Assembly: GCA_033763315.1 (NCBI GenBank)
Contig: JANRKS010000034.1
Coordinates: 340 to 64,339 of the forward strand
Length of the DNA: 64,000 nucleotides
DNA from: Deltaproteobacteria bacterium
GTDB lineage: Bacteria; Myxococcota_A; Polyangia; Fen-1088
Reading direction: 5' to 3'
Under the pieces are notes generated by a model. It did not search any database. It had not been told where the DNA came from and saw nothing but the letters and a program-made list of their open reading frames with translations. The position numbers and the translations under genes were made by a program. This document shows, one piece after another, positions 23,062-58,724 of the stretch (its first letter is position 1; every line of letters begins with the position of its first letter).

Positions 23062-24440
23062 AAAATGTGCATCATTCCCCCGGACTGGCCAGCGCCACGC
23101 GGCGGCAGATCTTGCGCACCGTTGGTCTGTCGGGCCTTGGACTTGGAGCCGGGACCTTGTCTTTCCGGCCCATCGCTCAAGCTGCTGAGATTCCCAAACG
23201 ATTGGTGGTGTTCTACACGATTGGCGGTGTGGATCCAGCGTGGGACCCCAAAGGTGACCGCACCAACTGGGAGCTGAGCGACCACCTTTCGCCACTGAAG
23301 CCCTTCAAGGAGAAGCTGAACTTGGTGTCAGGTCTCAAATCGGGATCCGCTGAGTTCGGTTTCAACGATGGAGGCGGACACGGAAGCAGATCTCAGCACG
23401 CTCTGGCCGCCTGGGCTCCCAAGTCAGTCAAAGAGAATCCCAGCGAAAACAGTTTGCCGGGAGGGGTCAGCTTTGACAATTTCATCGCGGAGAAGCTTAG
23501 GGCATCAGGCAACTCAGCCCCTATCGATCACTTGTACCTGCTGTCAAAGACAACGGGCTACGACTATCACGACTTCAATCTGTACCCTTCCCGGCGGAGC
23601 AATGGCGAGGTCCGGCATCCCGACGAGAACGCTGCCGCGATCGTGGACTTGTACTTTCCGAAGGGCAACAGCAAGCCGAAATCGACCGGGCCTGATTCCT
23701 CGGCCTACTTGGTGAATTTCCTCAAGCAGCAGTACGACCGGTACGCCAAGGCCGATAAGATGGACCTTGAGAGCAAACGTCGCTTTTCGAGCCATCTGGA
23801 TCGCTTGACTGACCTAGAAAAGCTCTCCGCGAGGGCCGCCTCTGACGCGTGTACGCGCCCGGAGGTTCCGACTGCGACAGACCTCGTTACTAGAAATCGA
23901 TTCTTTGCCGAACTCGTGGCGACCGCATTGGCTTGTGACACCGCGCGAGTGATCTTGCTGGACATGGGATGGGCGGTGAGCCCTTCGTTGGTGGGAGGCG
24001 TAAAGGAATTCAATTTGCCTCCCGCCAACCAGACCATCCACGAGCTGGGCCACGAGGTTCATGGCACCGGACCTCTTTCCACCAACCAAGCGGCCAGAGA
24101 CAAGCTTCTACACAGCTTTCGCATTCAAAACGTAGACCCCTTGTCTCAGCTCCTGGCCAAGATGGATTCCGTCCAGGAAGCCGATGGGAAGACCTTGTTA
24201 GACCACAGCGCGGTTTTGTGGTGCCAACAGTCTTCTGATGGCAACCACGGCCTAACGGACTTTCGCTACTTATTGGCTGGCGGCGCCGGCGGCAAGCTCA
24301 AGACGAACCAGTACCTGCACCTGCCGGGGCGGTCGACGGCCGATGTGTGGGTGACGCTTGCCAAAGCGATGGGGATCTCCGACACAACAGGAATCGCGGA
24401 CAGGTTCGCGTACGATGGCCCTATCGACGAGTTGCTGTAG
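23058..24440 (+). CDS. DUF1552-family protein with twin-arginine (TAT) signal; partner of the preceding DUF1592-family gene.
   Basis: MKNVHHSPGLASATRRQILRTVGLSGLGLGAG is a TAT signal. The ATG at 23058 overlaps the upstream stop (aTGa); the ORF is open from 23037. Same length and architecture as 57369..58724. Confidence 0.8.
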   Translation: MKNVHHSPGLASATRRQILRTVGLSGLGLGAGTLSFRPIAQAAEIPKRLVVFYTIGGVDPAWDPKGDRTNWELSDHLSPLKPFKEKLNLVSGLKSGSAEFGFNDGGGHGSRSQHALAAWAPKSVKENPSENSLPGGVSFDNFIAEKLRASGNSAPIDHLYLLSKTTGYDYHDFNLYPSRRSNGEVRHPDENAAAIVDLYFPKGNSKPKSTGPDSSAYLVNFLKQQYDRYAKADKMDLESKRRFSSHLDRLTDLEKLSARAASDACTRPEVPTATDLVTRNRFFAELVATALACDTARVILLDMGWAVSPSLVGGVKEFNLPPANQTIHELGHEVHGTGPLSTNQAARDKLLHSFRIQNVDPLSQLLAKMDSVQEADGKTLLDHSAVLWCQQSSDGNHGLTDFRYLLAGGAGGKLKTNQYLHLPGRSTADVWVTLAKAMGISDTTGIADRFAYDGPIDELL

Positions 24441-24534
24441 GCGCCCCTCCGTTGATCGGTCTGGAACCAGCCGGCGCGATGAACTTCTAACGGAGGATCA
24501 TTTTTGTGGCCTCCGAGAATGGCTCGTTTTCTTC

Positions 24535-27500
24535 ATGAGAGTTTCCGGTCAGTTCATGCCTATATGCATGCTCCTGGCGACAGCGTTGTCGGCGCCTTTC
24601 ACCACAAGCGCTTGGGCACATCCCTCCGACTCCGAAATCCAGTTCAACAGGGACATCCGTCCGATCCTCTCGAGCCGCTGCTTTTACTGCCACGGACCCG
24701 ACAAGGCGAAACGAAAATCGGGTTTGCGCTTGGATTTGCGGGAGGCCGCAATTGAAGACAAGGCCATTGTGGCTGGCCGCCCAGACGAGAGCGGGCTTTA
24801 CGCGCGAATCATGGCAACGGAGCCCGACGAAGTGATGCCTCCACCTGAAAGCCACAAGACGCTCAGCAAAGGCGAGATCGACTTGCTGAGGCGCTGGATC
24901 CAGAGCGGGGCCGAATACCAGCCCCATTGGTCCTACGCGCCCGTAAAGAAAACGGCCGTTCCTCCCTCTGAGGGCACGCTGGGAGCCGGGATTGGTGCCG
25001 GGACGCGGGCCGAAACGGCTCAAGCGGCGCCTACAACGGCCATTGATAAGTTCGTGTCGCGTGAGCTGCGCGAACGGGGCATGGTGCCGTCACCTCGAGC
25101 CGGCAAGCGCACCCTGTTGCGACGGCTGTCTTTGGACTTGACGGGCCTACCGCCCACGCTCAACGAACTCGATGCGTTTGCTGCCGATGAGCGCCCAGAC
25201 GCCTACAAGCGGCAAGTGGAAAGGCTCCTGGCATCCCCGCATTACGGCGAGCGTATGGCTGTCCCCTGGCTGGATCTGGTGCGGTTTGCAGACACCGTTG
25301 GCTATCACGGCGACCAAAACCAAAACATCTTTCCGTACCGTGACTACGTAATCGAATCGTTCAATCGCAACAAGCCTTTTGACCGATTTACGATTGAGCA
25401 GATCGCTGGCGATCTTCTACCCGGTGCGACCGAAGAGCAGAAGATCGCTTCGGGCTTTAACCGCTTGAACATGGTAACCCGCGAGGGAGGCGCTCAGCCC
25501 AAGGAGTACTTGGCGAAGTACATGGCTGACCGGGTGCGGGCGGTTGGCACCGTGTGGCTGGGCTCGACAACTGGCTGTGCACAGTGCCACGACCACAAGT
25601 TTGATCCTTTCACCCAGCGGGACTTCTACGCCATGGGTGCGTTCTTTGCGGACCTGAAGGAGTGGGGTGTCTACACAGATTACGAATACACCCCGAATCC
25701 GGAACTCAAGGGCTTTACGAACGATTCCCCGTTCCCGCCCGAGATCAAGATACATAGCGCTGTGCTCCAGCGCTTGTCTACTTCATTGCGAGCGCAGGAG
25801 CAGGCCTGGCGAAGAGAGGCATACCAGCAGATCCTACAGCACCATCTCAAAGCGCGGAACGAATGGATGCGCGGTGTGAGAGGTTGGATGGCGACCTCAC
25901 GTGACGGCTGGCAACCGGTCCTGCCAAATGAAGTGCTCAGCGAGGATCCTACCGTAGAAAACTCAATCGACGGTGAGACGGTCATCTTCAAAAGCAAGAA
26001 AAACGCCGGCCCGTTTGAATTTCCGGTTTCCACACTGCATTTCACTGTGCCTCCTGGTTCCCCTTTGCGATCGCTGGCGAGTGTGCGCTTGCAGGTCGTG
26101 CCGCACGCCAGCCACCAAGGTGGCACGTGGCGCAACGAACGGGAAACTGTGTTGTTGTGGCTCGATGTGAGGATCAAGCGCAAAGGCGCCAAGATCAGCG
26201 GCGATCTGATCGGAATCGCCAACGCCGACGCAGATCACAGAGCGAAGCGGTACGTAAGCGGCACTCTGCAGAACGATGTGGTGAATGGATGGTCGCTATC
26301 CCCGGCCTTCCGGCGAGTTCTGCAGACGTCAGTGTGGGATCTAAAGGTTCCGCAGGACCTCGATCCAGGGGACGAGGTGGTGGTGAGAATTCGCTCCGAC
26401 GGTGTGGGGGCTGTGAGGCTTGCCGTTTCTCCCATTGCCACACTCAGCGGCGATGCACCAGCTGGATGGGCCGCGGGCGGAGCGCCATGGGTACGGAAGC
26501 TGAAAGCCGGTATGTCGAGCGACCGCGGTGCCTCGGCTCTGTTTTTGGCGAGCACAAACATCTTGCCACGGCTACGCCGCCTCATTTTGAACGAACGGCG
26601 ACAGTGGTTGTCGATCGCCAACGCAACGGCGTACTCACTGGTGAGCGTTGCCACGACGCCCCGAGAAACCCGAGTGCTGCCACGTGGCGATTGGCAGAAC
26701 GAAAACGGAGAGGTGGTGCAGCCTGGGACCCCGAACTTCTTGCCGCAGATTGCGGACGTCGGCAAGCGCCGCTTGACGCGCCTGGATCTCGCGCGATGGT
26801 TGGTGTCGCGTGACAATCCGCTAACGTCACGCGCGTTCATGAACCGATTGTGGAAGCAGTTCTTTGGAACCGGACTCTCGGCGGCGCTCGACGATCTGGG
26901 CGGACAGGGAGAGCCTCCCACGCACCCAGAATTGTTGGATTGGCTTGCTGCCGAGTTCACAGATTCGGGCTGGGACGTCAAGCACATGGTTCGGCTGTTG
27001 GTGATGTCCGCGACATACCAGCAGGACTCGCAAGCCCGCCCTGAACTCATGAAAAAGGATCCACAAAATCGCTATCTGGCTCGACAATCGCAGCGGCGTT
27101 TGGACGCAGAATTCCTGCGTGACAACGTCCTGAAGGTGGCGGGTCTTCTAAATGAGGACATCGGTGGACCCAGTGTTCATCCCTACCAACCGGCGGGTTA
27201 CTACGAGAACATCGAATTTCCCAAGCGGGAATACGTGAGCGAGCAGGACGACAGGGTATACAAGCGCGGCGTCTACATGCACTGGCAGCGGACCTTCCTC
27301 CATCCCATGGCGGCCAACTTCGACGCTCCCTCGCGCGAAGAATGCGTGGCCGACCGTCCGATCTCCAACACCCCCCAACAGGCGCTGACCTTGCTTAACG
27401 ACCCCACCTTCGTTGAAGCGGCTCGGGTGTTCAGCGAACGAAACCTCAAGCAAACTCCTGGTCTCAAAGATGAAAAGCGCTTAGGAAGAGCCTTCGCAAC

Positions 27501-27720
27501 GGCGCTTGGTCGGGCGCCATCGGCGCTAGAGAGCCGTCAACTCTTGAAACTGCTTGACGAAGAACGAAGCCGATTCGGAGCGGCTCCGGAAGACGCCGAG
27601 GCATTGTTGGGAATTGGTCAACATCCTCGCGATCCGAAGCTTTCAGCATGTGAAGTAGCCGCTTGGACATCCGTGTCCCGCGTCATTCTCAATTTGTACG
27701 ACGCCATCACGAGAGTATGA
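24535..27720 (+). CDS. PSCyt1 (cytochrome c-like CxxCH) / DUF1549 (PSCyt2) / DUF1553 (PSD1) large secreted protein.
   Basis: Signal peptide [28 protein letters not shown] (the ORF is open from 24358). [27 protein letters not shown] (heme-binding-like CxxCH). [18 protein letters not shown]...[15 protein letters not shown] (DUF1549-like). A DUF1553-like C-terminal region. Confidence 0.85.
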   Translation: [1061 protein letters not shown]

Positions 27721-29162
27721 AGTTAAGCCACGCAATGAAGGAATTCGAGATTGACCGGCGCCGCCGAACCCTCCTCACAGGCGCTGGCTACGGTTTGGGT
27801 GCCGCCGCCTTGGGGCACCTTTGGCCAGGATCTGCGCACGCCGCTTCGAGGCCACGCGGGTGGTCCGGTGTGCTCACTGAGGCCGACTTTCCGGTTAGGG
27901 CCAAGCGGGTGATTCACCTCTGTATGGCGGGGGGACCCTCCCAGTTCGAGACCCTGGATTGGAAACCGATCCTGAGGAAGCTGCACGGCCAGCCCTTCCC
28001 AGCATCGCTAACGAAGGGTCAACAACTTGCGCAACTTCAAAACACGCCGCTTATCGCCCGTGGGTCGTTCGTCGACTTCAAGAGATACGGAAAGTCGGGG
28101 CAGGAGATTTCAACACTACTCCCACACATCGGGAGCGTCGCCGATGACATCTGTATCATTCGATCAATGTACGGCGAGCAGATCAACCACGATCCCGCAC
28201 ACGCTTTCATGAACACGGGCTCGATCTTGAAAAATCGACCGAGTATGGGCTCTTGGTTGCTGTATGGACTGGGTGCCGAAAGCCAGGACTTACCAGGCTT
28301 CGTGGTTATGGTTTCCGTCGGGCGAGATGGCGATCAGCCGATTTCCTCTCGCCAATGGTCTGCAGGTTTTTTGCCCAGTCGATTCCAAGGCATCCAGTTT
28401 CAATCGAAGGGCGACGCCGTGCATTTTGCGAAGCGCCCCGATGGAGTGAGCAAGGGCGCCCAAGAGCGCATCACGCAAACGGTGCGAGAGCTTGATGCGG
28501 CGACTTTTGCCGCGCGCTTGGATCCGGAAATTGAAACACGCATCAGCCAGTACGAGATGGCGTTTCGTATGCAAACCTCGGTACCCGAATTGACCGACCT
28601 GTCATCCGAGCCGAAGAGCGTCCTCGCGGCTTATGGCATCGAACGACCAGGTGACGGTAGTTTCGCATCCAATTGTTTGATGGCCAGGCGGCTTGCAGAG
28701 CGCGGCGTGCGGTTCATTCAACTTTACCACCGTGCGTGGGACCATCACGGCGACATTGAGAAGCACCTGCCCCGCGTGGCCCAAGGTGTGGATCAGCCCT
28801 GCGCGGCCCTCATCAAGGATCTGAAACAACGCGGAATGCTGGACGACACCCTGGTGATATGGGGAGGTGAATTTGGTCGCACCCCGATGGGTCAAGGATC
28901 AGGCCGGGATCACCACATCAATGCGTTTTCGATTTGGATGGCCGGAGGCGGCGTCAAGGGTGGCATGAGCTGGGGACACACAGACGAAATGGGATACAAC
29001 CACCTTAAGGACGGGCAGGAAGTCGCTGTACGAGATCTACACGCAACCATGCTGCGCCTGTGCGGTGTCGACCACAATCGCTTGACGTTTCCGTACCAGG
29101 GTCTCGATCAAAGACTGACCGGCGTTGAAGAAGCGCGAGTTGTAAAGGAGATCATTTCGTAG
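27717..29162 (+). CDS. DUF1501-family (sulfatase/alkaline-phosphatase-like) protein with TAT signal; partner of the preceding PSCyt/DUF1553 gene.
   Basis: MKLSHAMKEFEIDRRRRTLLTGAGYGLGAAALGH is a TAT signal. The start ATG at 27717 overlaps the upstream TGA (ATGA). C-terminal HRAWDHHGDIEKH and GGEFGRTP are typical of DUF1501. Confidence 0.85.
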   Translation: MKLSHAMKEFEIDRRRRTLLTGAGYGLGAAALGHLWPGSAHAASRPRGWSGVLTEADFPVRAKRVIHLCMAGGPSQFETLDWKPILRKLHGQPFPASLTKGQQLAQLQNTPLIARGSFVDFKRYGKSGQEISTLLPHIGSVADDICIIRSMYGEQINHDPAHAFMNTGSILKNRPSMGSWLLYGLGAESQDLPGFVVMVSVGRDGDQPISSRQWSAGFLPSRFQGIQFQSKGDAVHFAKRPDGVSKGAQERITQTVRELDAATFAARLDPEIETRISQYEMAFRMQTSVPELTDLSSEPKSVLAAYGIERPGDGSFASNCLMARRLAERGVRFIQLYHRAWDHHGDIEKHLPRVAQGVDQPCAALIKDLKQRGMLDDTLVIWGGEFGRTPMGQGSGRDHHINAFSIWMAGGGVKGGMSWGHTDEMGYNHLKDGQEVAVRDLHATMLRLCGVDHNRLTFPYQGLDQRLTGVEEARVVKEIIS

Positions 29163-42192: not shown

Positions 42193-43494
42193 TCAATTGA
42201 AGGCCCAGCTCACATCCGCGTAGAATCCGTTAATCCGCAGCCGGTAATCGTCGTTTCCTGCGGCCCCACAGAATGCGCAGGGTTGCTGTCCCGGCGACGC
42301 TGGATCGATGTCCTCTGGCCTCACCTGACCCGCGCCGCGGCGGTGGGCGTAAGCGACGTTGAACTGCCAGGCGCCGACGCTATACCCGGCCCCCGCTGTG
42401 AACACGTGCGTCGGTGCGGGCGGCGTCCCAAATGCGGAAGGGTAGCGCTCGTTGGTGATCTTGCCATCAAAGATGTAGCCGCCGCGCAGGGCGAAGGGGC
42501 GCACACCCGACGGGGTTGGCAGCAGCCTATATTCAACGCCCGTGCGAAGAGTGAAGGCATCGCGCCAGTTGAACACGTTGGGCACGGCGGCCCGCATTGG
42601 CGTGGCGCCCGGATCCGCGGGTGGAACCCCCGTGAGTGGATACGCACCGTTTTGGTGGCCGAAGATGTATTCGCCATCAACGGCGAAGCCCCACGCCTGC
42701 CAATCGGCGCGCGCGCCAGCACCAAGTTTCGATGGCAGTACGAACGACGTTTCGATGTCGGAATAGGTCCTCTGCAAAGCGATGCCTTGATCGTTTGTCA
42801 CCGTTGTTTTTGTGCGGTGGCGGTACGTGGTGCCGAGTTGCAGCCACGGCAACGGCGCCCATTGCAGTCCCACGCGCGCACCGAGAAAGTTGGTTCCCGT
42901 CATTTTGAAATCAAGCCCCGGCGGGATCGTTGAGCCCGGCACGCCCTGAAAACGTTCGAGGCTGACGTACGTCACCCGGTAGCCCAAGCCTAAGCGCACT
43001 TGCGGTGTCAGGTTAACGGCGATCCCGGGTGAAGCTTCAAGAAACACCAAGTGGGTCTTGTTCTCGGCGGTGTTGCTGCCAACGGGGTACTTATACGTGG
43101 CGCCTGCTGAGGCCACCGGATAAAGGCCAAAGCCCAACGTCACGAGCCGGCTCACGCGATACCCAGCGCCCAGCAAAAACAGGGGCGCCACGGTCAGCTC
43201 AGAGTCGCGATCTTTAGACAGGACGTCGGGGCTGGCGTGCGTCTTCGCCAGCAACAACGAGAAGTCTGCGATCAACGACAGACGTTGCACGTTGCCCAAC
43301 CCTGCGGGGTTGTGAAACAGGGCGGAGCCATCGTTTACGTAAGAGATGGCCGTGCCGCCCATGCCTATGTGGCGAGCGGAATACAACATCGGCGTGTCGT
43401 ATCCACCGGCGCGCACCGCAGCGGACGCAAAGGTGAGCGCGCCGGCGAATGCCAACGCACACGACAGCCGCTCACATTTGCGCGTTGCCATCAC
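42193..43494 (-). CDS. Outer-membrane beta-barrel protein, FadL/OmpP1/TodX-like (tentative).
   Basis: Signal peptide. GGYDTPMLYSARHIGMGGTAISYVNDGSALFHNPAGL resembles the FadL-family N-terminus. Alternating amphipathic strands run throughout, ending YADVSWAFN. Confidence 0.55.
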   Translation of the reverse strand: MMATRKCERLSCALAFAGALTFASAAVRAGGYDTPMLYSARHIGMGGTAISYVNDGSALFHNPAGLGNVQRLSLIADFSLLLAKTHASPDVLSKDRDSELTVAPLFLLGAGYRVSRLVTLGFGLYPVASAGATYKYPVGSNTAENKTHLVFLEASPGIAVNLTPQVRLGLGYRVTYVSLERFQGVPGSTIPPGLDFKMTGTNFLGARVGLQWAPLPWLQLGTTYRHRTKTTVTNDQGIALQRTYSDIETSFVLPSKLGAGARADWQAWGFAVDGEYIFGHQNGAYPLTGVPPADPGATPMRAAVPNVFNWRDAFTLRTGVEYRLLPTPSGVRPFALRGGYIFDGKITNERYPSAFGTPPAPTHVFTAGAGYSVGAWQFNVAYAHRRGAGQVRPEDIDPASPGQQPCAFCGAAGNDDYRLRINGFYADVSWAFN

Positions 43495-43496
43495 GA

Positions 43497-44051
43497 TCAG
43501 TTACCTGCGCTCGCGTCAGCCCCTGCGTCGGCTCCTGTGCTTGGGGCCGGTAGGCCGCTGCACATATAGAAGATGCTGAGGCATCCGTTCTGCTGTTGGC
43601 AACTGATGCACGCGGTGCTTGATGAATCAGCGGAACAGGGCACCTGGCACTTATCAATGGTGCAGTTGAAAGCCTTTTTGTAGCAATCCAAGCACACGTC
43701 GCTAACGCTTGGGTTGATCGTTTGTTTGACGCAAGCACTGGTGCAATCGTCGCCGCCACCGTTGAGAAAACACGACCGGCCACACGTGCGGGCCGCACCA
43801 CCAACGTCGTTAGCGCATACGACGTTCAAATCCGCCGCCGACGCGCACTTTCCCGCAAGCGAGGTGCCGGCTTCCAAGGTTGTTCGGTTGTAGGCCGCGA
43901 AGGTAGCCACGCACATCGCCGGCCCCACCGGACCATCAATGGCCGCATCGCCCACCGGCGTGACAGGCCCATCATCTTCATCATCGCATCCGGCTGTCGC
44001 GAGAACACCGGCCGCAGAGATCGCGCAGAGACACAGAATAAGGCGTTTCAT
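43497..44051 (-). CDS. Cys-rich lipoprotein (unknown function), immediately upstream of the outer-membrane protein gene.
   Basis: MKRLILCLCAISAAGVLATAGCDDEDDG lipobox, 20 Cys in 184 aa, Ala/Gly-rich C-terminal tail. Its stop abuts the downstream gene's start. Confidence 0.5.
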   Translation of the reverse strand: MKRLILCLCAISAAGVLATAGCDDEDDGPVTPVGDAAIDGPVGPAMCVATFAAYNRTTLEAGTSLAGKCASAADLNVVCANDVGGAARTCGRSCFLNGGGDDCTSACVKQTINPSVSDVCLDCYKKAFNCTIDKCQVPCSADSSSTACISCQQQNGCLSIFYMCSGLPAPSTGADAGADASAGN

Positions 44052-44177: not shown

Positions 44178-45686
44178 TTGTTCCGCGAACGAAGCCAAAG
44201 TAACGGTGGCGAGAGCCTGATGTTGCAGAATCTGCACTTTCGCGCGAGCATGCACGGCATGCCGCCATCTGGCCGGGTTGGGTTCGAGTTCAGCTTTTCC
44301 ACGGGAAAACCCGCGCCCACGCGGCCCGTGGGTCAACGCCTGCGGCTGTTGTTCCTCGCCAACTTCGCGGGCCAATCGTTGCCACCATTCACCGTGAAGA
44401 AAGTCAATGGCGATGATTTGGATGGCCTCGTCGCGGCGTTCTCACCGCAGGTGCACGTGGCCTTCAACAACGAATCTCCCGCCACGCTATCCTTCGCGTC
44501 GCTCGACGACTTCGCTCCAGACGAACTGTTGCGACGCGTGCCTGTGCTTATGGATTTGCAGCGCACGCGGGCTGAATTGTTGAACCCTGCCACGTTCGCT
44601 GCCACAGCGGCGCGTTTGGGCCTTGCGCAAACAACAGCGGCGCAGCCCACGCCCCCAGCACCCACCTCACTTTTTGCAGGTTTGTTGGGTGGTGAAGTCG
44701 CAAAGCCTTCCATTCCCCCTGCGCCTTCACCATCCGGCCTTGATGCCGTGCTCGCTCGCGCTGTTGCACCACACATCGTGCCCGCAGCGGATCCGCAGCA
44801 GAAATCACTCGTGTCGGTGGTTGACCAAAACCTCGCGGATGCTTTGCGATCTGTTCTTCATACGCCTGCGTTTGCGTCTGTGGAGGCCGCGTGGCGGGGG
44901 CTGCAACGCGTGGTTGAGGCGTTCTCTGGCGATCCGAGCGTGGAGCTGTGGGTTGCGTCCGCGCCGCCGGAAGTTCTGCTGGCTGACGCCGTAAAGCTGC
45001 AAACGAATCTGGACGCATCTTTGCTTGGCACGCTGTTGTGCGGTGAAGACGCGGCATGGTCGATGGTGATTGTCGACCACATGTTCGGACGTAGCGTGGA
45101 TGATCTCATCGCGCTTGGTGCCTTGGGCGCTTTGGCAGGTCGTGCGGGCATTTGTGCGGTGGCCAGTGGCGATGCGGCTTTGGCCGGCGGCGCAGCGTCT
45201 GATGTTCAGGAGCTTTGGCAAACGCTGCGGCAAAGTCCGCTTGCGCCGCACCTCGCTCTGGTTCATCCGCGGCTGCTGTTGCGATTGCCCTATGGTCCGC
45301 GGCGAAACGAGGTTCAGTCCTTCCCCTTCGACGAGCTTGGCACCCAAACCGAGCCCCCACCCCAACGCCTCCTGTGGGGCTCGGGCGCATGGGCGGTGGC
45401 AGGCGTCTTGGCGCGTTCCTTCACCGAGGATCCGGACGATTTGCCACTGGGGGCCAGTGCCGAGGTGGATGGCATTCCCACGCTGGTGTTTGTTGACAAG
45501 CACGGTGACAAGCAACTTTATCCCAGCTGTGAGTCGTGGCTTAGCGAGACGCAGGCGCAGACTCTGTTGGGTTCCGGCCTGATCCCGTTGGTTGGTAACC
45601 GTAGCTTGGCGCAAGCGTCGCTCTTCCGGCTGCAATCCATTGCCCAGCCGCCCCAGCCCTTGTGGCTCCGTAAGGTGAGCGCGTAG
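44178..45686 (+). CDS. T6SS sheath-like protein: TssB (VipA) and TssC (VipB) fused in one ORF, with the TssC C-terminal region absent.
   Basis: Aligned by eye to V. cholerae VipA/VipB as recalled from memory. The TssB part has RLRLLFLANFAG (VipA PLKTLVVGDFKG) and LSFASLDDFAPDELLRRVPVLMDLQRTRAEL (VipA LNFKSLADFAPDAVASQVPELKKLIELREAL). A Pro-rich linker follows. The TssC part has KSLVSVVDQNL...FASVEAAWRGLQRVVE (VipB KSLVDQMLVEL...FQAMESAWRGLKLFVD), LIALGALGALAGRAG (LQYMGALGAMAHAP), LALVHPRLLLRLPYGPRRNEVQSFPFDE (LTAPRFLLRVPYDPIENPVKSFNYAE), LLWGSGAWAVAGVLARSF (YLWGNTAFAFATRLTDSF), and IPTLVFVDKHGDK...LIPLVGNRSLAQASLF (LPVHVFESMGAL...FIALTMRKGSDNAAFF). The ORF stops where VipB has about 120 more residues, and the next gene starts 16 nt later. 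The start may be 44250 (MHGMPPSGRV) rather than 44178. Confidence 0.7.
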   Translation: MFRERSQSNGGESLMLQNLHFRASMHGMPPSGRVGFEFSFSTGKPAPTRPVGQRLRLLFLANFAGQSLPPFTVKKVNGDDLDGLVAAFSPQVHVAFNNESPATLSFASLDDFAPDELLRRVPVLMDLQRTRAELLNPATFAATAARLGLAQTTAAQPTPPAPTSLFAGLLGGEVAKPSIPPAPSPSGLDAVLARAVAPHIVPAADPQQKSLVSVVDQNLADALRSVLHTPAFASVEAAWRGLQRVVEAFSGDPSVELWVASAPPEVLLADAVKLQTNLDASLLGTLLCGEDAAWSMVIVDHMFGRSVDDLIALGALGALAGRAGICAVASGDAALAGGAASDVQELWQTLRQSPLAPHLALVHPRLLLRLPYGPRRNEVQSFPFDELGTQTEPPPQRLLWGSGAWAVAGVLARSFTEDPDDLPLGASAEVDGIPTLVFVDKHGDKQLYPSCESWLSETQAQTLLGSGLIPLVGNRSLAQASLFRLQSIAQPPQPLWLRKVSA

Positions 45687-45701: not shown

Positions 45702-47723
45702 TTGAACCGGAAGGCCCTTCGGGTAACCTGCCAGGCAGTGCCTGGTTGCCCCGCCTGTGACGTTGAGCTTTCCGATCCCAGCCTGCGGTTTTGCAGTGCG
45801 TGCGGGCACGATCTCAAACCGAAGGCCATTGAAGACGAGTTTGACGGTCTGATCGGCAAGATCGTCGACGCGCGCTACAAGGTCCTTGGCCGCATCGGCT
45901 CCGGGGGGATGGGCGTCGTTTACCGCGTCGAGCATGTTCGCATGGGTAAGGTGGCCGCGATGAAAGTGTTGCGCCGCGATTTGGTTGACGACGCCCAAGC
46001 CGCGCGCCGCTTCGTGCGGGAGGTGGAGGTGGTGAGCAAACTTGACCACCCCAACATCGTTCAAACGTTCGATTTCGGCGAATGGCGTGGGCTGCTTTAC
46101 CTCGTGATGGAATTGGTGCGCGGCGAAGATCTCGCAGCGCTTGTGCGGCGTGATGGCCCGTTGTCGTTAAGCCGCGCCTTGCCGCTGTTTTCGCAAGTGT
46201 GTCGCGCGCTTGATGAAGCGCACCACGCGGGCGTGATTCACCGCGATCTCAAGCCCGACAACATTGTCGTCTTTAGCCGCCGCGAAGGCGAGCACGTGAA
46301 AGTGTTGGACTTCGGGTTGGCCAAACTGCGCGAACGTCCCGGCATGGCTGAAGTGACGGGGGCGGGCAGTCTGGTGGGCACACCCTATTACATGGCGCCC
46401 GAACAAGTGCGCAGCGAGCCCGTGGACGAACGCACCGACATCTACGCTCTGGGGGCCACGATTTATCGCGTGGTCACGGGCACGCCCGCGTTCTCGGGTG
46501 ATTCGCCTATGGCGATCTTAACCCGCCATATCACCGATCCTGTTGAACCACCCAGCGTGCGACGTCCCGGGCTGCCATTGGCGTTGGATCACCTGGTGCT
46601 CAAGGCCATGGCGAAAGATCCCGCCAACCGTTTTGCCACGGCAACCGAGATGCGCGAAGCCATCGACGCGCTTTTGACGGCCCGTATTGCCGCCAATGAA
46701 CACAGCCAACCTTTGCCCTCGTGGGTTGAGAATCCTGTCACCGCCAGCGCGGAGATGCCCCGCAGCACCACCGCTGTCACTGCGGTGGCCATGCCCAAGC
46801 CTGATGACAGCGATCCGCTCACGCGCCTGCGTCGCGAGGATCTTGATGATTTCGAACGCAGCCTGAAGCGCCGCCGTCTGTTTCTGCAGCTGGGCGTGCC
46901 GCTCGCGGTGATAGTGTGTGCATGGGCCGGGTGGCGTTGGATCATTGCCCCACCCGAGCAAGCCGGGCCTACGGAAGAAGAGCCCAACGATTCGGCACGC
47001 ACAGCAAACTTGGCAGCAAATTCCACGCCCATCTTCGGCCAGCTTGGCTCCGAGAAGGCGGATGGAACGCCCGACTTTGATTACTACCGCATCCCTGCAG
47101 GGAACACGCCGCGCACGCTGTTCGCGTCAGTCAGTGGCGTCAACGAGATCAACTTGGTGCTAGAGCTGTTCGATTCAGCCGGCGCGTTGGTCGGAAAATC
47201 AGATGGCGGGGGCGAAGGAGCCGGAGAAACCTTAGGGCCTTTGCACATCGGCGCGAATGAAGCGTTTTTGCGCGTGAGGCCGCTGTGGCACGAGGGACAA
47301 GATTCGAACACCGTGACTTCGCAAACGCCTTACGCGATCCGAACCTCATGGGGAAAGCCTTCCGCGGATGCTGAACTTGAACCCAACGATGTGAGGACAC
47401 AAGCCTCGCCCTTGTTATTGGATACCGCCACAACGGGGCACCTGTCGTCGGTGCAAGACGTTGATTGGTTCGTGGTCAACGGTGATCCAGGCGGCCGCAT
47501 CACGCTCACCTTAGAACCAAGCGCCGAGCTGCCCGTCCTGGTTGAATCACCGAACACGAAACAAAAACTTGTGGCCAGCGCCGACGCCGCATCCATGCCT
47601 TTGGTCTTCCCCAACGATGGTCGGATCTTTGTGTCAGCCAGGCAGTCGGCACACAAAAAAGACGCCGACGTTGATCGCACGGCGCCCTACGCCCTCATCG
47701 TTCGCAAAGCGTCGCGCGAATAA
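45702..47723 (+). CDS. Membrane Ser/Thr protein kinase: N-terminal zinc ribbon, Hanks-type kinase, one TM, and two extracytoplasmic PPC (pre-peptidase C-terminal)-like domains.
   Basis: CPACDVELSDPSLRFCSACGHDL (Zn ribbon). GSGGMGVVYRVEH...AAMKVL (glycine loop/VAIK), HRDLKPDNIV, DFGLAK, YMAPE. TM LFLQLGVPLAVIVCAWAGWRWII. C-terminal DFDYYRIP... and EPNDV...GHLSSVQDVDWFVV are PPC-like. Confidence 0.85.
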   Translation: MNRKALRVTCQAVPGCPACDVELSDPSLRFCSACGHDLKPKAIEDEFDGLIGKIVDARYKVLGRIGSGGMGVVYRVEHVRMGKVAAMKVLRRDLVDDAQAARRFVREVEVVSKLDHPNIVQTFDFGEWRGLLYLVMELVRGEDLAALVRRDGPLSLSRALPLFSQVCRALDEAHHAGVIHRDLKPDNIVVFSRREGEHVKVLDFGLAKLRERPGMAEVTGAGSLVGTPYYMAPEQVRSEPVDERTDIYALGATIYRVVTGTPAFSGDSPMAILTRHITDPVEPPSVRRPGLPLALDHLVLKAMAKDPANRFATATEMREAIDALLTARIAANEHSQPLPSWVENPVTASAEMPRSTTAVTAVAMPKPDDSDPLTRLRREDLDDFERSLKRRRLFLQLGVPLAVIVCAWAGWRWIIAPPEQAGPTEEEPNDSARTANLAANSTPIFGQLGSEKADGTPDFDYYRIPAGNTPRTLFASVSGVNEINLVLELFDSAGALVGKSDGGGEGAGETLGPLHIGANEAFLRVRPLWHEGQDSNTVTSQTPYAIRTSWGKPSADAELEPNDVRTQASPLLLDTATTGHLSSVQDVDWFVVNGDPGGRITLTLEPSAELPVLVESPNTKQKLVASADAASMPLVFPNDGRIFVSARQSAHKKDADVDRTAPYALIVRKASRE

Positions 47724-55687: not shown

Positions 55688-57349
55688 ATGGCACCCGCGA
55701 CGTTGTCTGTTGTTCGCCCTCTTTACACCTTCATAGCGGTTTGGTCCTTAACCGGAGGGTGTTCGGGCGCGGTTCGTTCTACTGATAGCGGCGATGACGG
55801 TGCGGGCGGTGGGGCAGGCACGTCGGAACAAACGGGGGGCGCTGGTTCTAACGGTAGCGCCGCGGGCCCCGCGCGTGCGGCGCCAACCATGCTCCGACGA
55901 CTCACGAACACTGAGTATCGCAACACATTGGTGGCTCTGTTGTCCTTGCCGCAGTCCCCAAAGGATTCACTTAGCGCCGATCCGTTGAGCAAGGCCGGCT
56001 TTGATAACTTCTCGTCACAGCTAACGGTGTCCACAACAACGGCAGCGCAATACGCGGCCTTAAGCGAGTCGCTGGTTTCGGCATGGAAGGCCCCCGCCTG
56101 CGCCGGCGCCGAAACAGATTGCGCAAAAACGTTCGTTGCAAGCTTTGGCAAGAAGGCTTTTCGTCGTCCCCTGAGTGACACGGAGCTGCAGCGTTACGTG
56201 GCTCTTTACACCGACGAGCGCACAAGAGGAACCCACGCAGGGGCGCTTGGGCAGGTGGTGGAAACGATGTTGCAATCCCCGAAGTTCCTCTACAGATCGG
56301 AGCTTGGGAATCCTGCCGATGGCGCCAATCGCAAGCTCACGCCATACGAAGTTGCCACGGCGCTTTCTTACCTATTTACGGGTTCAATGCCCGACGACGA
56401 GCTGTTTGCGGCCGCCGACGCGGATGCGCTGCGCACGCCTGCGCAGATAGAAAAGCAAGCGCGGCGCCTGCTTGGCTTGCCATCCGCAAAGAGCACGCTT
56501 CGCGGCTTCATTGAGGCTTATGCCGGCATCACACGATTGTCGGAAATCACCAAGAACGCCGAAACATACCCGCAGTTCACGGCTGCCCTTCACAGCGCGA
56601 TGAAGGAGGAGACGAGCCGCTTTATTGATTCGGTGCTTTGGGAAGGTGACGGAACCTTCAAGTCTTTGTTGACCAACACAACCACCTTCGTCAATGCAGA
56701 CTTGGCAAAGTTTTATGGTCTGCCTGGCGCCGCTGATCCCACCACCTTCGTGAAAGCGACGCCACTACACCGCGCTGGCCTTTTGACCCGCCCAGCGGTG
56801 CTTGCGGCCCATTCAAAGGCCAACGAATCGTTCCCCATCTTGCGTGGCAAGTTCGTGCGAGTGGCTTTGCTCTGCCAAAATCTTCCCGCGCCGCCCAAGG
56901 TTGTGCCCAAAGCGCCCGAGCCCGCCGCCAACGCCACCACGCGTGAGCGCTTTGCTCAACACGCAAGTGACCCCGCCTGCTCTGGGTGCCATCGTTTGAT
57001 CGACCCGCTTGGTTTTGGATTCGAGAACTACGATGGCATTGGCCAATACCGCGAAACAGAAAGTGGCAAACCGATCGATGCCGCGGGCGTCATCACAGAC
57101 ACGATCGACCTGGATGGGCCTTTCATGGGCGCGGTGGAGCTGTCGCAAAAGTTGGCGTCAAGCGCGGAAGCCCAGCAGTGCTTTGCTCTGCAGGCCTTTC
57201 GATGGATGTTCGGTCGGTACGACGCTGACGATGAAGCCAAGATCGCTGAAGCGGCGCAAACCGCATTGTCCCGTGAGGGCTTAAATATCAAAGACCTGTT
57301 TGTGTCTTTAGCGAAGACCGATGCCTTTGCTTCCAGGACGTTCGAGTAA
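55688..57349 (+). CDS. DUF1587/DUF1592/DUF1588/DUF1585-family lipoprotein; same-length (553 aa) paralog of 21400..23061.
   Basis: Lipobox VWSLTGGCSG. LTNTEYRNTLVALL, FGKKAFRRPL, GLLTRPAVLA, CSGCHRLIDPLGFGFENYDGIGQYR. Confidence 0.8.
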   Translation: MAPATLSVVRPLYTFIAVWSLTGGCSGAVRSTDSGDDGAGGGAGTSEQTGGAGSNGSAAGPARAAPTMLRRLTNTEYRNTLVALLSLPQSPKDSLSADPLSKAGFDNFSSQLTVSTTTAAQYAALSESLVSAWKAPACAGAETDCAKTFVASFGKKAFRRPLSDTELQRYVALYTDERTRGTHAGALGQVVETMLQSPKFLYRSELGNPADGANRKLTPYEVATALSYLFTGSMPDDELFAAADADALRTPAQIEKQARRLLGLPSAKSTLRGFIEAYAGITRLSEITKNAETYPQFTAALHSAMKEETSRFIDSVLWEGDGTFKSLLTNTTTFVNADLAKFYGLPGAADPTTFVKATPLHRAGLLTRPAVLAAHSKANESFPILRGKFVRVALLCQNLPAPPKVVPKAPEPAANATTRERFAQHASDPACSGCHRLIDPLGFGFENYDGIGQYRETESGKPIDAAGVITDTIDLDGPFMGAVELSQKLASSAEAQQCFALQAFRWMFGRYDADDEAKIAEAAQTALSREGLNIKDLFVSLAKTDAFASRTFE

Positions 57350-57368
57350 GCCGCGAAGGAGACCAATC

Positions 57369-58724
57369 ATGTCACATGCATTAATTCGACGTCGCAGTCT
57401 GATGAAGCGCCTCGGTGCTGCCGGCTTCCTTGCAGCGCCTGTGTTTCGCGAAGCGTTTGCCGAGGCCGCCGCAACGCCACCCTTGAGGCTCATTCTTCTG
57501 AACTTGCCAGGTGGGATCCCGTTCAAGGGAGGATCAGAGGAGCAGCTCGACACGTTTTTCGATACGATGCTGAAGCCCTTTGCGGCGTTGCAGTCCGACG
57601 CTTTCGTTTTCGACAACATTCAAAATGGCGCTGGAGATTTGGTCTCAACCTATTTTGAGCTCGAAGGTCACGGTGGAGGCTGCCGATCGATCTTTGGCGC
57701 GGCCGTCATGGATCAAGGGTGCAAGGGCACCGCGAGCTGTGGTGCGGAGGAGAATGCGTATCGGTATGGCACGGCGACCACGATCGACCAGCACTTGGCG
57801 AAAGCCATTGGCTCCCGCACACAGTTTCCTGCACTGCACTTTGGAACTTTGTGGGACAAGGGCCAAGGCGGTGATCACGCCGAATGCTTCTTCAACAATG
57901 GCCAACCGGTGCGCCCGATGGCCGATCCGATGGCCGCCTTCACCCGTTTGTTTGGCAACAAGGCGCCAAGCGCCAACACAGGTTCCACGGGCCCTGATGC
58001 TCTCACAGTGAATAAGCGTGCGCGCGGCAAAAGCCGCCTGGATGCGCTCTATGCTGAAATCGCCGAGGTGAAAGCGATCGCCGGTCGAACGGAGCGGGCG
58101 AAGCTCGATCAGCATCTTACGGCGCTGCGTGAGTTGGAAACACAGCTTCCCGCGGCTCAAGATGGTGCCCCCGTGCCGCAAAAGGGGACCTCGTGCAGCA
58201 CTCCTTCGGTCACAGCCGCGGCTGACATTCGCATTGTGAGTGCCGCATTCAACGGGCTCGCTTACCAAGCGCTGAACTGCGACCTTACGCGTATCGTGGC
58301 TTTGCAATGGTTGTCATCTGGCGACCATCTGCCGCGGTTTGAATGGTTGGGTTGCAAAACCGATCACCATACGATGGAGCACAGTTCAAACGGCGCCGAA
58401 TACATCAAAGCGCAAACGTGGATCCTTGAGCAGATGGCGGCGTTTGTGGGCATGCTGAAGGCCACGCCCGAGGGCAACGGCAACATGCTCGACAATTCTA
58501 TCGTCTATCTGGCGTCGGAGATGGGCAACGGCACGCACCTACTCAGCCCTGCGCTTTCCGTAATGTTTGGCAAGGCAGGGGGCGCCTTTCGCCCCGGGCG
58601 CCGCATCGATATGGGCGGGCGCCACATCAATGATGTGTTGCTCACGATCACGAAAACGATGGGCCTCAACGCATCCTCGATCGGTGATGCCAAATTCAAT
58701 AAGGGCGTGGTGTCGTTGGCCTGA
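57369..58724 (+). CDS. DUF1552-family TAT-secreted protein; paralog of 23058..24440.
   Basis: MSHALIRRRSLMKRLGAAGFLAAPVF is a TAT signal. The ATG at 57369 is 19 nt past the upstream stop; the ORF is open from 57321. Confidence 0.8.
   Translation: MSHALIRRRSLMKRLGAAGFLAAPVFREAFAEAAATPPLRLILLNLPGGIPFKGGSEEQLDTFFDTMLKPFAALQSDAFVFDNIQNGAGDLVSTYFELEGHGGGCRSIFGAAVMDQGCKGTASCGAEENAYRYGTATTIDQHLAKAIGSRTQFPALHFGTLWDKGQGGDHAECFFNNGQPVRPMADPMAAFTRLFGNKAPSANTGSTGPDALTVNKRARGKSRLDALYAEIAEVKAIAGRTERAKLDQHLTALRELETQLPAAQDGAPVPQKGTSCSTPSVTAAADIRIVSAAFNGLAYQALNCDLTRIVALQWLSSGDHLPRFEWLGCKTDHHTMEHSSNGAEYIKAQTWILEQMAAFVGMLKATPEGNGNMLDNSIVYLASEMGNGTHLLSPALSVMFGKAGGAFRPGRRIDMGGRHINDVLLTITKTMGLNASSIGDAKFNKGVVSLA

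What the first reader, a model, noticed from the sequence alone, without database searches (positions are those of the whole stretch)
44178..45686. Single-ORF fusion of T6SS sheath subunits TssB and TssC, lacking the TssC C-terminal region and orphaned from any T6SS locus
The 502-aa product aligns collinearly with VipA (TssB) over its first ~130 residues and then, after a Pro-rich linker, with VipB (TssC) from about residue 60 to about residue 370. Several near-identical blocks are listed in the feature evidence. It ends where VipB has ~120 further residues that form part of the inner handshake domain, and a kinase gene begins 16 nt later, so this is not a simple frameshift of a canonical gene. 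TssB and TssC are encoded separately in characterised T6SSs. A covalent TssBC lacking the handshake region could not form a canonical contractile sheath by itself. No Hcp, VgrG, baseplate, membrane-complex or ClpV genes are nearby. The candidates are a decayed remnant, a repurposed sheath-like filament, or a regulator of a T6SS encoded elsewhere. Its location next to a transmembrane Ser/Thr kinase recalls the threonine-phosphorylation control of the T6SS in Pseudomonas, where PpkA, PppA and Fha1 act.
Basis: partly seen in the sequence, partly recalled or inferred. Interest (0 to 1): 0.8.

Follow-up and report, generated by a model that had tools for sequence, protein, structure and literature searches.

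The report
Domain-1-less TssB–TssC sheath paralogue, orphan copy
The gene really encodes a single protein that joins the two subunits of the type VI secretion "spring" but lacks the part needed to build the spring; it belongs to a widespread, conserved and apparently unstudied family that usually sits inside type VI secretion gene clusters, and here it sits alone next to a kinase.

Summary
ORF 44178-45686 (+) encodes a TssB-like N-terminal part, a Pro/Ala-rich linker and a TssC-like part. It stops where canonical TssC continues with its ~120-residue gp25-like domain 1. No remainder of that domain exists in any frame of the window, and the 64-kb window holds no other T6SS gene.

It is not a one-off or a decaying remnant. 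The same architecture occurs in 58 protein clusters and at least 579 loci of species-representative genomes from about eight phyla. All 141 members examined lack domain 1. The family separates from canonical TssC and from ImpD/TssC40 in 100/100 bootstraps. In the window's clade dN/dS is about 0.1 and the C-terminus is conserved.

Of 43 loci with a full ±9-10 kb view, 24 lie in T6SS clusters that also encode canonical TssB and TssC, often divergent from vgrG; 16 show no T6SS gene nearby. The window's copy belongs to an orphan Myxococcota-type clade with conserved synteny next to a Ser/Thr kinase. That kinase resembles T6SS-cluster kinases only in its catalytic domain.

Best reading: a non-polymerising sheath-protomer mimic that serves as a T6SS accessory or regulatory subunit, acting here in trans or co-opted. 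I found no description in the literature.

The parts
44178..45686 (+). Maximal ORF of the TssB-TssC(ΔC) fusion gene (502 aa from TTG, stop included). NCBI aa from ATG 44220. The family alignment favours ATG 44259 (about 475 aa).
44259..44333 (+). N-terminal arm 'MPPSGRVGFEFSFSTGKPAPTRPVG'. It shows an alternating-hydrophobic strand pattern that aligns to the TssB N-terminal donor strand. AF2 confidence is low here, as expected for an unpaired arm.
   Evidence: Donor-arm role of the TssB N-terminus: PMC5807055, PMC5813253.
44334..44624 (+). TssB/VipA-like core (strands plus helices; 488-aa numbering about 39-135).
   Evidence: Pfam PF05591. hhalign vs canonical TssB: Prob 98.9%, E 2.5e-17. AF2 pLDDT above 90.
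44625..44789 (+). Pro/Ala-rich variable linker (488-aa numbering 136-190), low AF2 confidence, still under purifying selection (ω about 0.17-0.20).
44664..44693 (+). Conserved ΦΦxxLLG motif 'TSLFAGLLGG' within the linker. [quoted passage not shown] It is kept even in family members with a much shorter linker.
   Evidence: (G157 nearly invariant). ClpV-binding peptides: PMC5048182.
44808..45641 (+). TssC/VipB N-terminal-domain homology (sheath domains 2 and 3). The protein ends 14 residues later, where canonical TssC continues into domain 1 (PF18945).
   Evidence: Pfam PF05943, E 1.7e-28. hhalign: Prob 100%, E 4e-53. Foldseek hits to TssC/VipB structures.
45684..45686 (+). Genuine stop codon. 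The C-terminal sequence QPLWLRKVSA* is conserved in clade relatives, and no domain-1 coding remainder lies downstream or anywhere in the window.
45702..47723 (+). Downstream Zn-ribbon / Ser-Thr kinase / one predicted TM segment (residues about 393-415) / about 250-aa C-terminal part without a Pfam hit. It is a syntenic neighbour in the orphan clade. A functional link to the fusion gene is unproven.
43497..44051 (-). Divergent upstream gene: a 184-aa protein with a lipoprotein-type signal and 19 Cys. It is conserved upstream of the fusion gene in the whole orphan clade. Listed as context only.

Best explanation
The gene encodes a functional member of a conserved family of T6SS sheath paralogues. 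Each member is a covalently fused TssB-TssC protomer with four retained parts: the TssB N-terminal arm, the TssB core, the TssC N-terminal helix-like motif, and sheath domains 2 and 3. The family has lost domain 1, which carries the two acceptor strands of the handshake, the C-terminal donor arm, and the inner layer facing the tube.

Such a protein cannot polymerise into a sheath on its own. I infer that it acts as a protomer mimic. It could dock on a real sheath end or on the baseplate through its N-terminal arm and its domain 2/3 surfaces. It could also engage ClpV through the helix-like motif. Either way it would work as an accessory or regulatory subunit, for example a cap or terminator, a sheath stabiliser, or a modulator of recycling, and not as a building block.

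In the window's Myxococcota-type clade the gene has left the T6SS cluster. There it would act in trans on a T6SS encoded elsewhere, or it has been co-opted for another role.

Shown: the architecture, the family-wide loss of domain 1, purifying selection, frequent residence in T6SS clusters alongside canonical tssB and tssC, and orphan status within 64 kb.

Inferred: inability to polymerise (from published structures and truncation experiments), docking through the arm, ClpV binding, and action in trans.
For: - Architecture.
- Family-wide trait: 0 of 83 locus-encoded and 0 of 58 database members match a TssC C-terminal-domain HMM, with a positive control of 7/7.
- Distinct family: it separates from canonical TssC and ImpD in 100/100 bootstraps.
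- Breadth: at least 579 confirmed loci across Gamma/Betaproteobacteria, Acidobacteriota, Planctomycetota, Verrucomicrobiota, Gemmatimonadota, Rokubacteria and Myxococcota, plus Roseobacter-group plasmids.
- T6SS linkage: 24 of 43 loci with full flanks have at least 2 T6SS core families. vgrG is within the locus in 31 of 81, mostly at position -1 or -2. Canonical tssB and tssC are present wherever that part of the cluster is visible.
- Selection: dN/dS 0.11-0.12 for the window vs L090 and L088, and 0.09-0.20 for each of the three segments.
- Conserved N-arm pattern and ΦΦxxLLG motif.
- Role of domain 1 and the arms: PMC5807055 and PMC5813253. C-terminally truncated TssC binds TssB but forms no tubules: PMC3597794. 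ClpV binds the TssC N-terminal helix: PMC5048182.
Against: - There is no experimental datum for any family member.
- 16 of 43 fully viewed loci, including the window, have no T6SS gene nearby and share no common partner gene. A T6SS-independent role is therefore possible in those lineages.
- I could not test whether the window's genome has a T6SS elsewhere.
- The N-arm is only weakly conserved in sequence, and AF2 gives low confidence for it and for the motif region.
- The ClpV-helix resemblance rests on alignment position and residue pattern only.
- Recurrent neighbouring methyltransferases are not explained by this model.
Confidence: 0.55

Rival explanations
1. T6SS-independent, co-opted function in the orphan clade. 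The sheath-protomer fold serves as a scaffold, substrate or partner of the adjacent membrane Ser/Thr kinase, or of another envelope-signalling module, with no T6SS involved.
For: - The fusion-kinase order is kept in five relatives at 42-75% fusion identity. Intergenic gaps are 15-68 nt in four of them.
- Kinase orthologs are well conserved over their full length (62-83% identity).
- Orphan copies occur in several separate clades.
- No T6SS gene lies in the 64 kb.
Against: - The whole ~20-kb neighbourhood (FadL-like OMP, lipoprotein, ECF sigma/anti-sigma, SecA, ABC-F) is syntenic, so the adjacency may simply be inherited.
- In L089 an unrelated gene on the opposite strand separates the two genes.
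- Outside this clade a kinase is not a regular neighbour. It lies within ±6 genes in 8 of 81 loci, and several of those are kinases of T6SS clusters.
- Other orphan loci share no common partner.
Confidence: 0.25
2. Spike- or baseplate-side adaptor or cargo. The protein works with VgrG/PAAR, as the adaptors and effectors encoded next to vgrG do, and not with the sheath.
For: - vgrG is the most frequent neighbour (31 of 81 loci, mostly at -1/-2).
- DUF4123 adaptor genes and PAAR-like DUF4280 genes recur nearby.
- In Leisingera the module is the C-terminal part of a 1,370-aa protein directly upstream of vgrG.
Against: - In most loci the gene is divergent from vgrG, so they share a promoter region but not an operon. 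That may reflect cluster layout only.
- In Acidobacteriota-type clusters the neighbour is a second tssK, not vgrG.
- No toxin or known adaptor domain is present.
- The window has no vgrG.
Confidence: 0.1
3. A self-sufficient, repurposed sheath-like filament or ring assembled from the fusion protein alone.
For: The protein is a compact, confidently modelled sheath-like protomer, and it is conserved where no T6SS genes are nearby.
Against: - It lacks both handshake acceptor strands and the C-terminal donor arm. These mediate all inter-protomer β-sheet links in known sheaths (PMC5807055, PMC5813253).
- TssB with C-terminally truncated TssC makes no tubules (PMC3597794).
- There is no tube (Hcp) gene nearby.
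Confidence: 0.06
4. A decaying remnant or pseudogene of a lost T6SS, or an assembly or frameshift artefact.
For: It is truncated relative to TssC and isolated from T6SS genes in the window.
Against: - dN/dS is about 0.1 in every segment.
- The stop position and C-terminal motif are conserved across relatives from independent assemblies.
- The identical architecture occurs in at least 579 loci.
- No domain-1 remnant exists in any frame.
Confidence: 0.03

Closest known systems
Canonical T6SS sheath heterodimer TssB/VipA + TssC/VipB (e.g. V. cholerae 3J9G/5MXN, P. aeruginosa TssB1C1 5N8N, M. xanthus 5URW/5URX)
   Same: - Homologous TssB-like core and TssC-like domains 2 and 3.
[quoted passage not shown]
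- Most family members are encoded in T6SS clusters.
   Different: - It is one polypeptide instead of two.
- It lacks the whole gp25-like domain 1 (PF18945), and so lacks the handshake acceptor strands, the C-terminal donor arm and the tube-facing layer.
- It scores far below the NCBIfam equivalog cut-offs (85 vs 271.5 bits; 20 vs 97 bits).
- It occurs in addition to canonical tssB and tssC, not in place of them.
- It forms a separate clade (100/100).
ImpD / TssC40 (Atu4340), the second TssC paralogue of Rhizobiales T6SS clusters
   Same: It is an extra TssC-like gene in a T6SS cluster that is not redundant with the main TssC. In A. tumefaciens it is required for Hcp secretion and does not stabilise TssB (PMC3702570). 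This sets a precedent for non-canonical sheath paralogues with their own role.
   Different: The Rhizobium ortholog (L092:6456-7844, 462 aa) has VipB plus VipB_2 and no VipA part. It keeps domain 1 and lacks the TssB fusion, the reverse of the present family. It groups with canonical TssC and not with the fusion family.
TssE / phage gp25 sheath initiator
   Same: It is another partial sheath homolog used as an accessory part. TssE corresponds to sheath domain 1 alone and accepts the arms of the first sheath ring (PMC5813253). The fusion family is the complementary fragment: everything except domain 1.
   Different: The two share no homologous region. No TssE-like sequence is in the window. Any physical pairing of the two is my speculation.
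Engineered C-terminal truncation HsiB1 + HsiC1(1-212)
   Same: It forms a stable TssB-TssC complex that cannot form tubules because the TssC C-terminus is absent (PMC3597794). This is the closest experimental analogue of what the natural fusion should be able and unable to do.
   Different: It is an artificial construct with two chains and a much deeper truncation (212 residues kept, against about 358 TssC-equivalent residues here).
Threonine-phosphorylation pathway of T6SS (PpkA / PppA / Fha1, TagF)
   Same: A membrane Ser/Thr kinase is encoded next to a T6SS-related gene. Many T6SS clusters that carry the fusion gene also encode Fha, PP2C and a kinase.
   Different: - The window has no FHA, PP2C or TagF gene.
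- The kinase matches T6SS-cluster kinases only in the catalytic domain (27-39%).
- Its C-terminal part has no Pfam match. From my own recollection, which I did not test here, PpkA has a periplasmic von Willebrand A domain.

Membership tests
TssC / VipB sheath large subunit (TIGR03355; PF05943 + PF18945) | N-terminal sheath domain PF05943 (sheath domains 2 and 3) | tested here: met
   PF05943, E 1.7e-28, profile 3-300 of 301. hhalign Prob 100%. Foldseek E 5e-16 to TssC1.
TssC / VipB sheath large subunit (TIGR03355; PF05943 + PF18945) | C-terminal gp25-like domain 1 (PF18945) with the handshake acceptor strands and the C-terminal donor arm | tested here: not met
   No PF18945 hit. The alignment stops at TssC column 378 of 500. 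A C-terminal-domain HMM finds nothing in the protein, the window or any family member.
TssC / VipB sheath large subunit (TIGR03355; PF05943 + PF18945) | Score above the curated equivalog cut-off | tested here: not met
   TIGR03355 scores 85.2 bits against a cut-off of 271.5.
TssC / VipB sheath large subunit (TIGR03355; PF05943 + PF18945) | Encoded with tssB, hcp and baseplate genes in a T6SS cluster | tested here: not met
   No T6SS core gene in the 64-kb window.
TssB / VipA sheath small subunit (TIGR03358; PF05591) | VipA-family homology | tested here: met
   PF05591 scores 24.9 bits against a cut-off of 24, which is marginal. The family profile against canonical TssB gives Prob 98.9%, E 2.5e-17. 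The equivalog cut-off is not met (20.2 vs 97.25 bits).
TssB / VipA sheath small subunit (TIGR03358; PF05591) | Separate polypeptide of about 170 aa that pairs with TssC | tested here: not met
   It is covalently fused to the TssC-like part in all 141 family members examined.
TssB / VipA sheath small subunit (TIGR03358; PF05591) | N-terminal donor β-strand that inserts into a neighbour's handshake sheet | tested here: inconclusive
   An alternating-hydrophobic pattern is conserved at the equivalent position. However, it is about 13 residues shorter than in TssB, weakly conserved, and has low AF2 confidence. Actual insertion cannot be tested here.
Domain-1-less TssB-TssC fusion paralogues (family defined in this report) | Single chain with TssB-like part, linker containing the ΦΦxxLLG motif, and TssC domains 2 and 3; no domain 1; about 440-530 aa | tested here: met
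   The window protein aligns over its full length with 41 members at 28-75% identity.
Domain-1-less TssB-TssC fusion paralogues (family defined in this report) | Groups with the family and apart from canonical TssC/ImpD | tested here: met
   NJ bootstrap 100/100.
ImpD / TssC40-type second TssC | VipB + VipB_2 without a VipA part, encoded directly after tssC | tested here: not met
   The Rhizobium ImpD ortholog has PF05943 + PF18945 and no PF05591. The window protein has the opposite set.
T6SS threonine-phosphorylation pathway (PpkA/PppA/Fha) | Kinase encoded with an FHA protein and a PP2C phosphatase, in or acting on a T6SS cluster | tested here: not met
   The TagH/Fha HMM gives no hit in the window. 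Pfam scans of ORFs of at least 180 aa show no FHA or PP2C. Kinase similarity to T6SS-cluster kinases is limited to the catalytic domain.
T6SS threonine-phosphorylation pathway (PpkA/PppA/Fha) | Phosphorylation-dependent control of T6SS assembly | not testable with these tools
   This needs phosphoproteomics or genetics.

The most novel reading that the evidence does not exclude
The family is a previously unrecognised third type of sheath component of many T6SSs. It would be a protomer mimic that plugs into the growing or contracted sheath through its TssB-like arm and domain 2/3 surfaces. Because it lacks domain 1, it would terminate or cap polymerisation, or titrate ClpV through its exposed N-helix-like motif. 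Either action would set sheath length, stability or recycling. In several lineages, including this one, it would have been uncoupled from the cluster and placed under separate, possibly kinase-linked, control.
Probability: 0.3. Interest if true: 0.8.

Novelty: new variant of a known kind. Interest (0 to 1): 0.6.

Why it matters
Sheath assembly, length control and recycling are central open problems in T6SS mechanics. The known modulators (TssA, TagA, TagB, TagJ) are unrelated to the sheath itself. This report describes a conserved sheath paralogue that keeps the outer and middle layers and one connecting arm but has lost the polymerisation domain. It is present in hundreds of species across about eight phyla. 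That combination makes it a natural candidate for a built-in cap, terminator or ClpV decoy.

The family is currently hidden in databases under the generic names 'sheath large subunit' and 'ImpC'. This can inflate T6SS counts in genome surveys, because an orphan copy like this one could be scored as tssC. Cultured carriers exist (Rubrivivax, Roseateles, Paucibacter, Rugamonas, Leisingera), so the question can be tested directly.

For this particular window the result is more modest. It is one orphan member of that family in a housekeeping region, with no demonstrated link to its kinase neighbour.

Tried and rejected
1. Frameshift or split gene. An HMM of the TssC C-terminal domain and a TssE HMM against all six frames of the window gave only noise (E 2.4 and 0.25). 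Rejected.
2. Pseudogene. dN/dS is about 0.1 and the stop is conserved. Rejected.
3. Same family as Agrobacterium TssC40/ImpD. The Rhizobium ortholog has VipB + VipB_2 and no VipA. Rejected.
4. Identity with the recently described Tvp accessory proteins next to vgrG. Those are DUF2169, DUF3540 and DUF6484 proteins. Unrelated.
5. A 2026 review of T6SS accessory factors and five further full-text searches gave no description of a natural TssB-TssC fusion or a domain-1-less paralogue.
6. Kinase as a PpkA ortholog. Only catalytic-domain similarity was found. Not supported.
7. A common partner gene in orphan loci. None was found.
8. My first neighbourhood analysis, with a length-greedy ORF caller, failed in high-GC loci: the fusion gene was lost to antisense ORFs in 22 loci. 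I redid it with a GC3 filter.
9. The first bootstrap run had saturated distances that produced NaN values. I repeated it with a cap.
10. Exact-sequence look-up of the window's own protein found no record.
Full report

Yes. The ORF 44178..45686 (+) exists and is 502 aa from a TTG. Pfam assigns PF05591 (T6SS_VipA) to residues 58-136, only just above threshold (24.9 bits against a cut-off of 24). It assigns PF05943 (VipB N-terminal domain) to residues 211-488 at E 1.7e-28, covering profile positions 3-300 of 301. PF18945 (VipB_2), the gp25-like C-terminal domain of TssC, is absent. NCBIfam finds the same two homologies but far below the equivalog cut-offs: 85 against 271.5 bits for TssC and 20 against 97 bits for TssB.

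Because the VipA match was marginal, I tested it with profiles. A 42-sequence alignment of the family aligns to ten canonical TssB sequences with probability 98.9% (E 2.5e-17). It aligns to seven canonical TssC sequences with probability 100% (E 4e-53). The TssC match covers columns 21-378 of 500, so about 122 C-terminal residues have no counterpart.

An AlphaFold2 model built from the family alignment is confident (pLDDT 86.4, pTM 0.83). The exceptions are the first ~33 residues and the linker. Its best structural matches are T6SS sheath large subunits from P. aeruginosa, V. cholerae, M. xanthus, Francisella and Azotobacter (E 5e-16 to 6e-9). VipA chains appear further down the list.

The truncation is not an artefact. 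An HMM of the missing TssC C-terminal domain finds nothing in a six-frame translation of the whole window (best E 2.4), and a TssE/gp25 HMM finds nothing either (best E 0.25). The C-terminal sequence 'QPLxLRKVxA' followed by a stop is conserved in relatives from independent assemblies.

The window holds no other T6SS gene. I built custom HMMs for TssA, B, E, F, G, K, L and M, Hcp, VgrG, ClpV, Fha, TagJ and PAAR-like proteins from Pfam-annotated loci. They hit only the fusion gene. Pfam scans of the large ORFs show housekeeping and envelope genes instead: SecA, XseA, shikimate dehydrogenase, an ECF sigma/anti-sigma pair, ABC transporters, a fucosidase and Planctomycete-type DUF15xx pairs.

- All homologs start at the position of the third in-frame Met (ATG 44259, 'MPPSGRVGF'), so the product is probably about 475 aa.
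- TssC homology starts near TssC residue 21, not residue 60.
- Identity to solved sheath proteins is 18-26%, which is not 'near-identical'.

**2. What is it?**

It is not a singleton. A search of 5.8 billion proteins returned 58 clusters at 28-100% identity. Of these, 54 carry both PF05591 and PF05943. The other four show PF05943 only, and two of those are short. Most are 440-530 aa, and none has PF18945. They come from Myxococcota-type, Bryobacteraceae and Terriglobia MAGs.

The best 80 come from these groups:
- Gammaproteobacteria (Competibacter, Sedimenticola, Methylococcales)
- Betaproteobacteria, including cultured Rubrivivax, Roseateles, Paucibacter and Rugamonas
- Acidobacteriota, Planctomycetota, Verrucomicrobiota, Gemmatimonadota, Rokubacteria and Myxococcota

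Roseobacter-group plasmids (Leisingera, Phaeobacter, Ruegeria) carry the same VipA + VipB-N module, again without VipB_2. There it forms the C-terminal part of a 1,370-aa protein directly upstream of vgrG.

None of 83 locus-encoded members and none of 58 database members matches the TssC C-terminal-domain HMM, whereas 7 of 7 canonical TssC do. Loss of domain 1 is therefore a defining trait of the family. In a neighbour-joining analysis the family separates from canonical TssC and ImpD in 100 of 100 bootstraps.

*Genomic context.* In distant members the gene sits inside complete T6SS clusters that also encode canonical TssB and full-length TssC, together with Hcp, TssA, TssE/F/G, ClpV and TssK/L/M. 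It is typically the first gene of an operon divergent from vgrG or from a second tssK.

Across 81 non-redundant loci, vgrG is the most frequent neighbour (31 loci, mostly at position -1 or -2). Among the 43 loci with at least 9 kb on both sides, 24 have two or more T6SS core families, 3 have one and 16 have none. The loci without T6SS genes fall in several separate clades and share no common partner gene. Recurrent accessory neighbours are DUF4123 adaptors, PP2C phosphatases, Fha and two families of SAM-methyltransferases.

*The window's copy.* It belongs to a well-supported clade (100/100) of five orphan copies: the window, L090 at 75% identity, L088/L089 at 58%, L003 at 45% and L001 at 42%. 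All lie in the same syntenic block. The order is a FadL-like outer-membrane protein, a Cys-rich lipoprotein on the opposite strand, the fusion gene, a Zn-ribbon Ser/Thr kinase, small ORFs, an anti-sigma/ECF sigma pair, and SecA.

Nei-Gojobori dN/dS is 0.12 against L090 and 0.11 against L088. By segment it is 0.09-0.11 for the TssC-like part, 0.12-0.16 for the TssB-like part and 0.17-0.20 for the linker. Synonymous sites are near saturation, so these ratios are approximate, but pN is far below pS throughout. The gene is maintained by selection.

**3. How does it most likely work?**

*Established facts about the sheath.* Protomers are tied together by a four-stranded 'handshake' sheet in domain 1. 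Two strands belong to the C-terminal part of TssC. One is donated by the C-terminal arm of a neighbouring TssC and one by the N-terminal arm of a neighbouring TssB (PMC5807055). [quoted passage not shown] TssE, a homolog of domain 1 alone, is proposed to accept the arms of the first ring (PMC5813253). TssB bound to a C-terminally truncated TssC is stable but forms no tubules (PMC3597794). [quoted passage not shown]

*How the fusion protein maps onto this.*
- It retains a short N-terminal segment with a conserved alternating-hydrophobic pattern at the position of the TssB donor arm (GRVGFEFSFS, GRMELNLSLG, ERLKFDLGFG).
- It retains the TssB core.
[quoted passage not shown] The motif survives even in members whose linker is otherwise cut short. 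It resembles the EAEC TssC1 ClpV-binding peptide DSVYASLFEKINL.
- It retains sheath domains 2 and 3.
- It lacks the acceptor strands, the C-terminal arm and the tube-facing layer.

*Inference.* It is a covalent, non-polymerising sheath-protomer mimic. It could occupy one arm-acceptor site on a sheath end or on TssE without offering a site for the next subunit, which would make it a cap or terminator. It could also present a permanently exposed ClpV-binding helix, which would make it a decoy or recruiter. I commit to the general statement that it is an accessory or regulatory sheath-mimic of the T6SS, at 0.55 confidence. The specific cap/terminator or ClpV readings are less certain (about 0.3 together).

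For the window's copy the protein would act in trans on a T6SS encoded elsewhere. I could not test whether such a system exists in this genome.

- No FHA or PP2C gene was found in the window.
- The kinase's similarity to kinases in T6SS clusters that carry the fusion gene is limited to the catalytic domain (27-39% identity), while its clade orthologs are 62-83% identical over the full length.
- The adjacency sits inside a larger syntenic block.
- In L089 an unrelated gene on the opposite strand lies between the two genes.

A co-opted, kinase-linked and T6SS-independent role remains the main rival (0.25).

**4. Comparison with what is known**

- The protein is homologous to both sheath subunits but fails defining features of each. 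It has no domain 1, it falls below the equivalog cut-offs, it is not a separate small subunit, and it is not in a T6SS cluster here.
- ImpD/TssC40 of Rhizobiales is the only other non-canonical sheath paralogue I found in the literature. It is needed for Hcp secretion and is not redundant with TssC41 (PMC3702570). Its architecture is the opposite: VipB + VipB_2 without VipA.
- TssE is the complementary fragment of a sheath protomer, being domain 1 only.
- A 2026 review of T6SS accessory factors (PMC13584744) and five further full-text searches contain no description of a natural TssB-TssC fusion or a domain-1-less sheath paralogue.
- Databases label members generically as 'sheath large subunit', 'sheath domain-containing protein' or 'ImpC'.

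**5. Novelty and verdict**

The gene is not a unique oddity. It is an orphan member of a widespread, conserved and apparently uncharacterised family that normally accompanies canonical tssBC. I rate it a new variant of a known kind.

Interest is 0.6. At family level it offers a directly testable handle on sheath length, stability or recycling control, and it is a caveat for tssC-based T6SS surveys. For this window itself no function or T6SS partner is shown.

The main limitations are:
- No experimental data exist for any family member.
- There was no access to whole genomes of the orphan carriers.
- Neighbourhood classification relied on ad-hoc HMMs and a heuristic gene caller.
- The tree is distance-based.

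Noticed in passing
window 21400-24440 and 55688-58724; also 24358-29162: There are two paralogous gene pairs of identical sizes: a 553-aa protein with DUF1587/1595/1592/1588/1585 (PSD/PSCyt) domains followed by a 467-aa DUF1552 protein. There is also a PSCyt1-DUF1549-DUF1553 protein (1120 aa) followed by a DUF1501 protein (499 aa). These are 'Planctomycete-type' families in a Myxococcota-like MAG.
   Followed up: no
window 6222-13253 (-): A 2,343-aa protein with four Laminin_G_3 (concanavalin-like) repeats. It is flanked by a GDSL lipase, LuxR-type response regulators, a Reg_prop histidine kinase and a PA14 protein.
   Followed up: no
L005, L024, L026, L030, L047, L066, L071, L072 (DUF7059-MTS-DUF7782, ~500 aa); L006, L037, L039, L040 (TPR + Methyltransf_23, ~450 aa): Two different SAM-dependent methyltransferase families recur immediately next to the fusion gene, in both T6SS-embedded and orphan loci. 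None is present in the window. This may point to a protein-methylation link.
   Followed up: partly
L091:13655-17767 (Leisingera methylohalidivorans plasmid NC_023136.1, WP_342667109.1): A 1,370-aa protein with an unannotated ~780-aa N-terminal region fused to the same VipA + VipB(ΔC) module. It lies directly upstream of tssI/vgrG in a T6SS cluster with TagH, TagF, PP2C and a kinase. 22 plasmid records matched the query, 17 of them from Leisingera.
   Followed up: partly
L005:13373-15343: A single 656-aa gene call carries VipA + VipB + VipB_2. It is either a full-length natural TssB-TssC fusion or an artefact of a frameshift-prone assembly, since TssF and TssA are fragmented in the same locus.
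   Followed up: no
L089:2604-3965: In a 57%-identical relative of the window's gene, a SLFN_AlbA_2 / HATPase_c_4 gene on the opposite strand is inserted between the fusion gene and the kinase. This shows that the pair is not obligatorily co-transcribed.
   Followed up: yes
window 42193-44051 (-): A FadL/Toluene_X-like outer-membrane protein (433 aa) is followed by a 184-aa protein with a lipoprotein-type signal (…LATAGC) and 19 cysteines and no Pfam hit. This pair lies upstream of the fusion gene in the window, L001 and L003. The small protein is also present in L088, L089 and L090.
   Followed up: partly
window 45702-47723 (+), residues ~430-673 of the kinase: The C-terminal, presumably periplasmic ~250 aa of the Ser/Thr kinase have no Pfam match. 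By eye they contain two modules that each begin with 'EPND'. This part is conserved over the full length in clade orthologs.
   Followed up: no
L004, L005, L024, L065, L066 (Acidobacteriota/Gemmatimonadota-type T6SS clusters): These clusters carry two tssK genes, and the fusion gene is adjacent to the second one: divergent from it in L004, L005 and L024, and directly upstream on the same strand in L065 and L066. An unannotated ~430-550-aa gene often lies between the two tssK copies.
   Followed up: no
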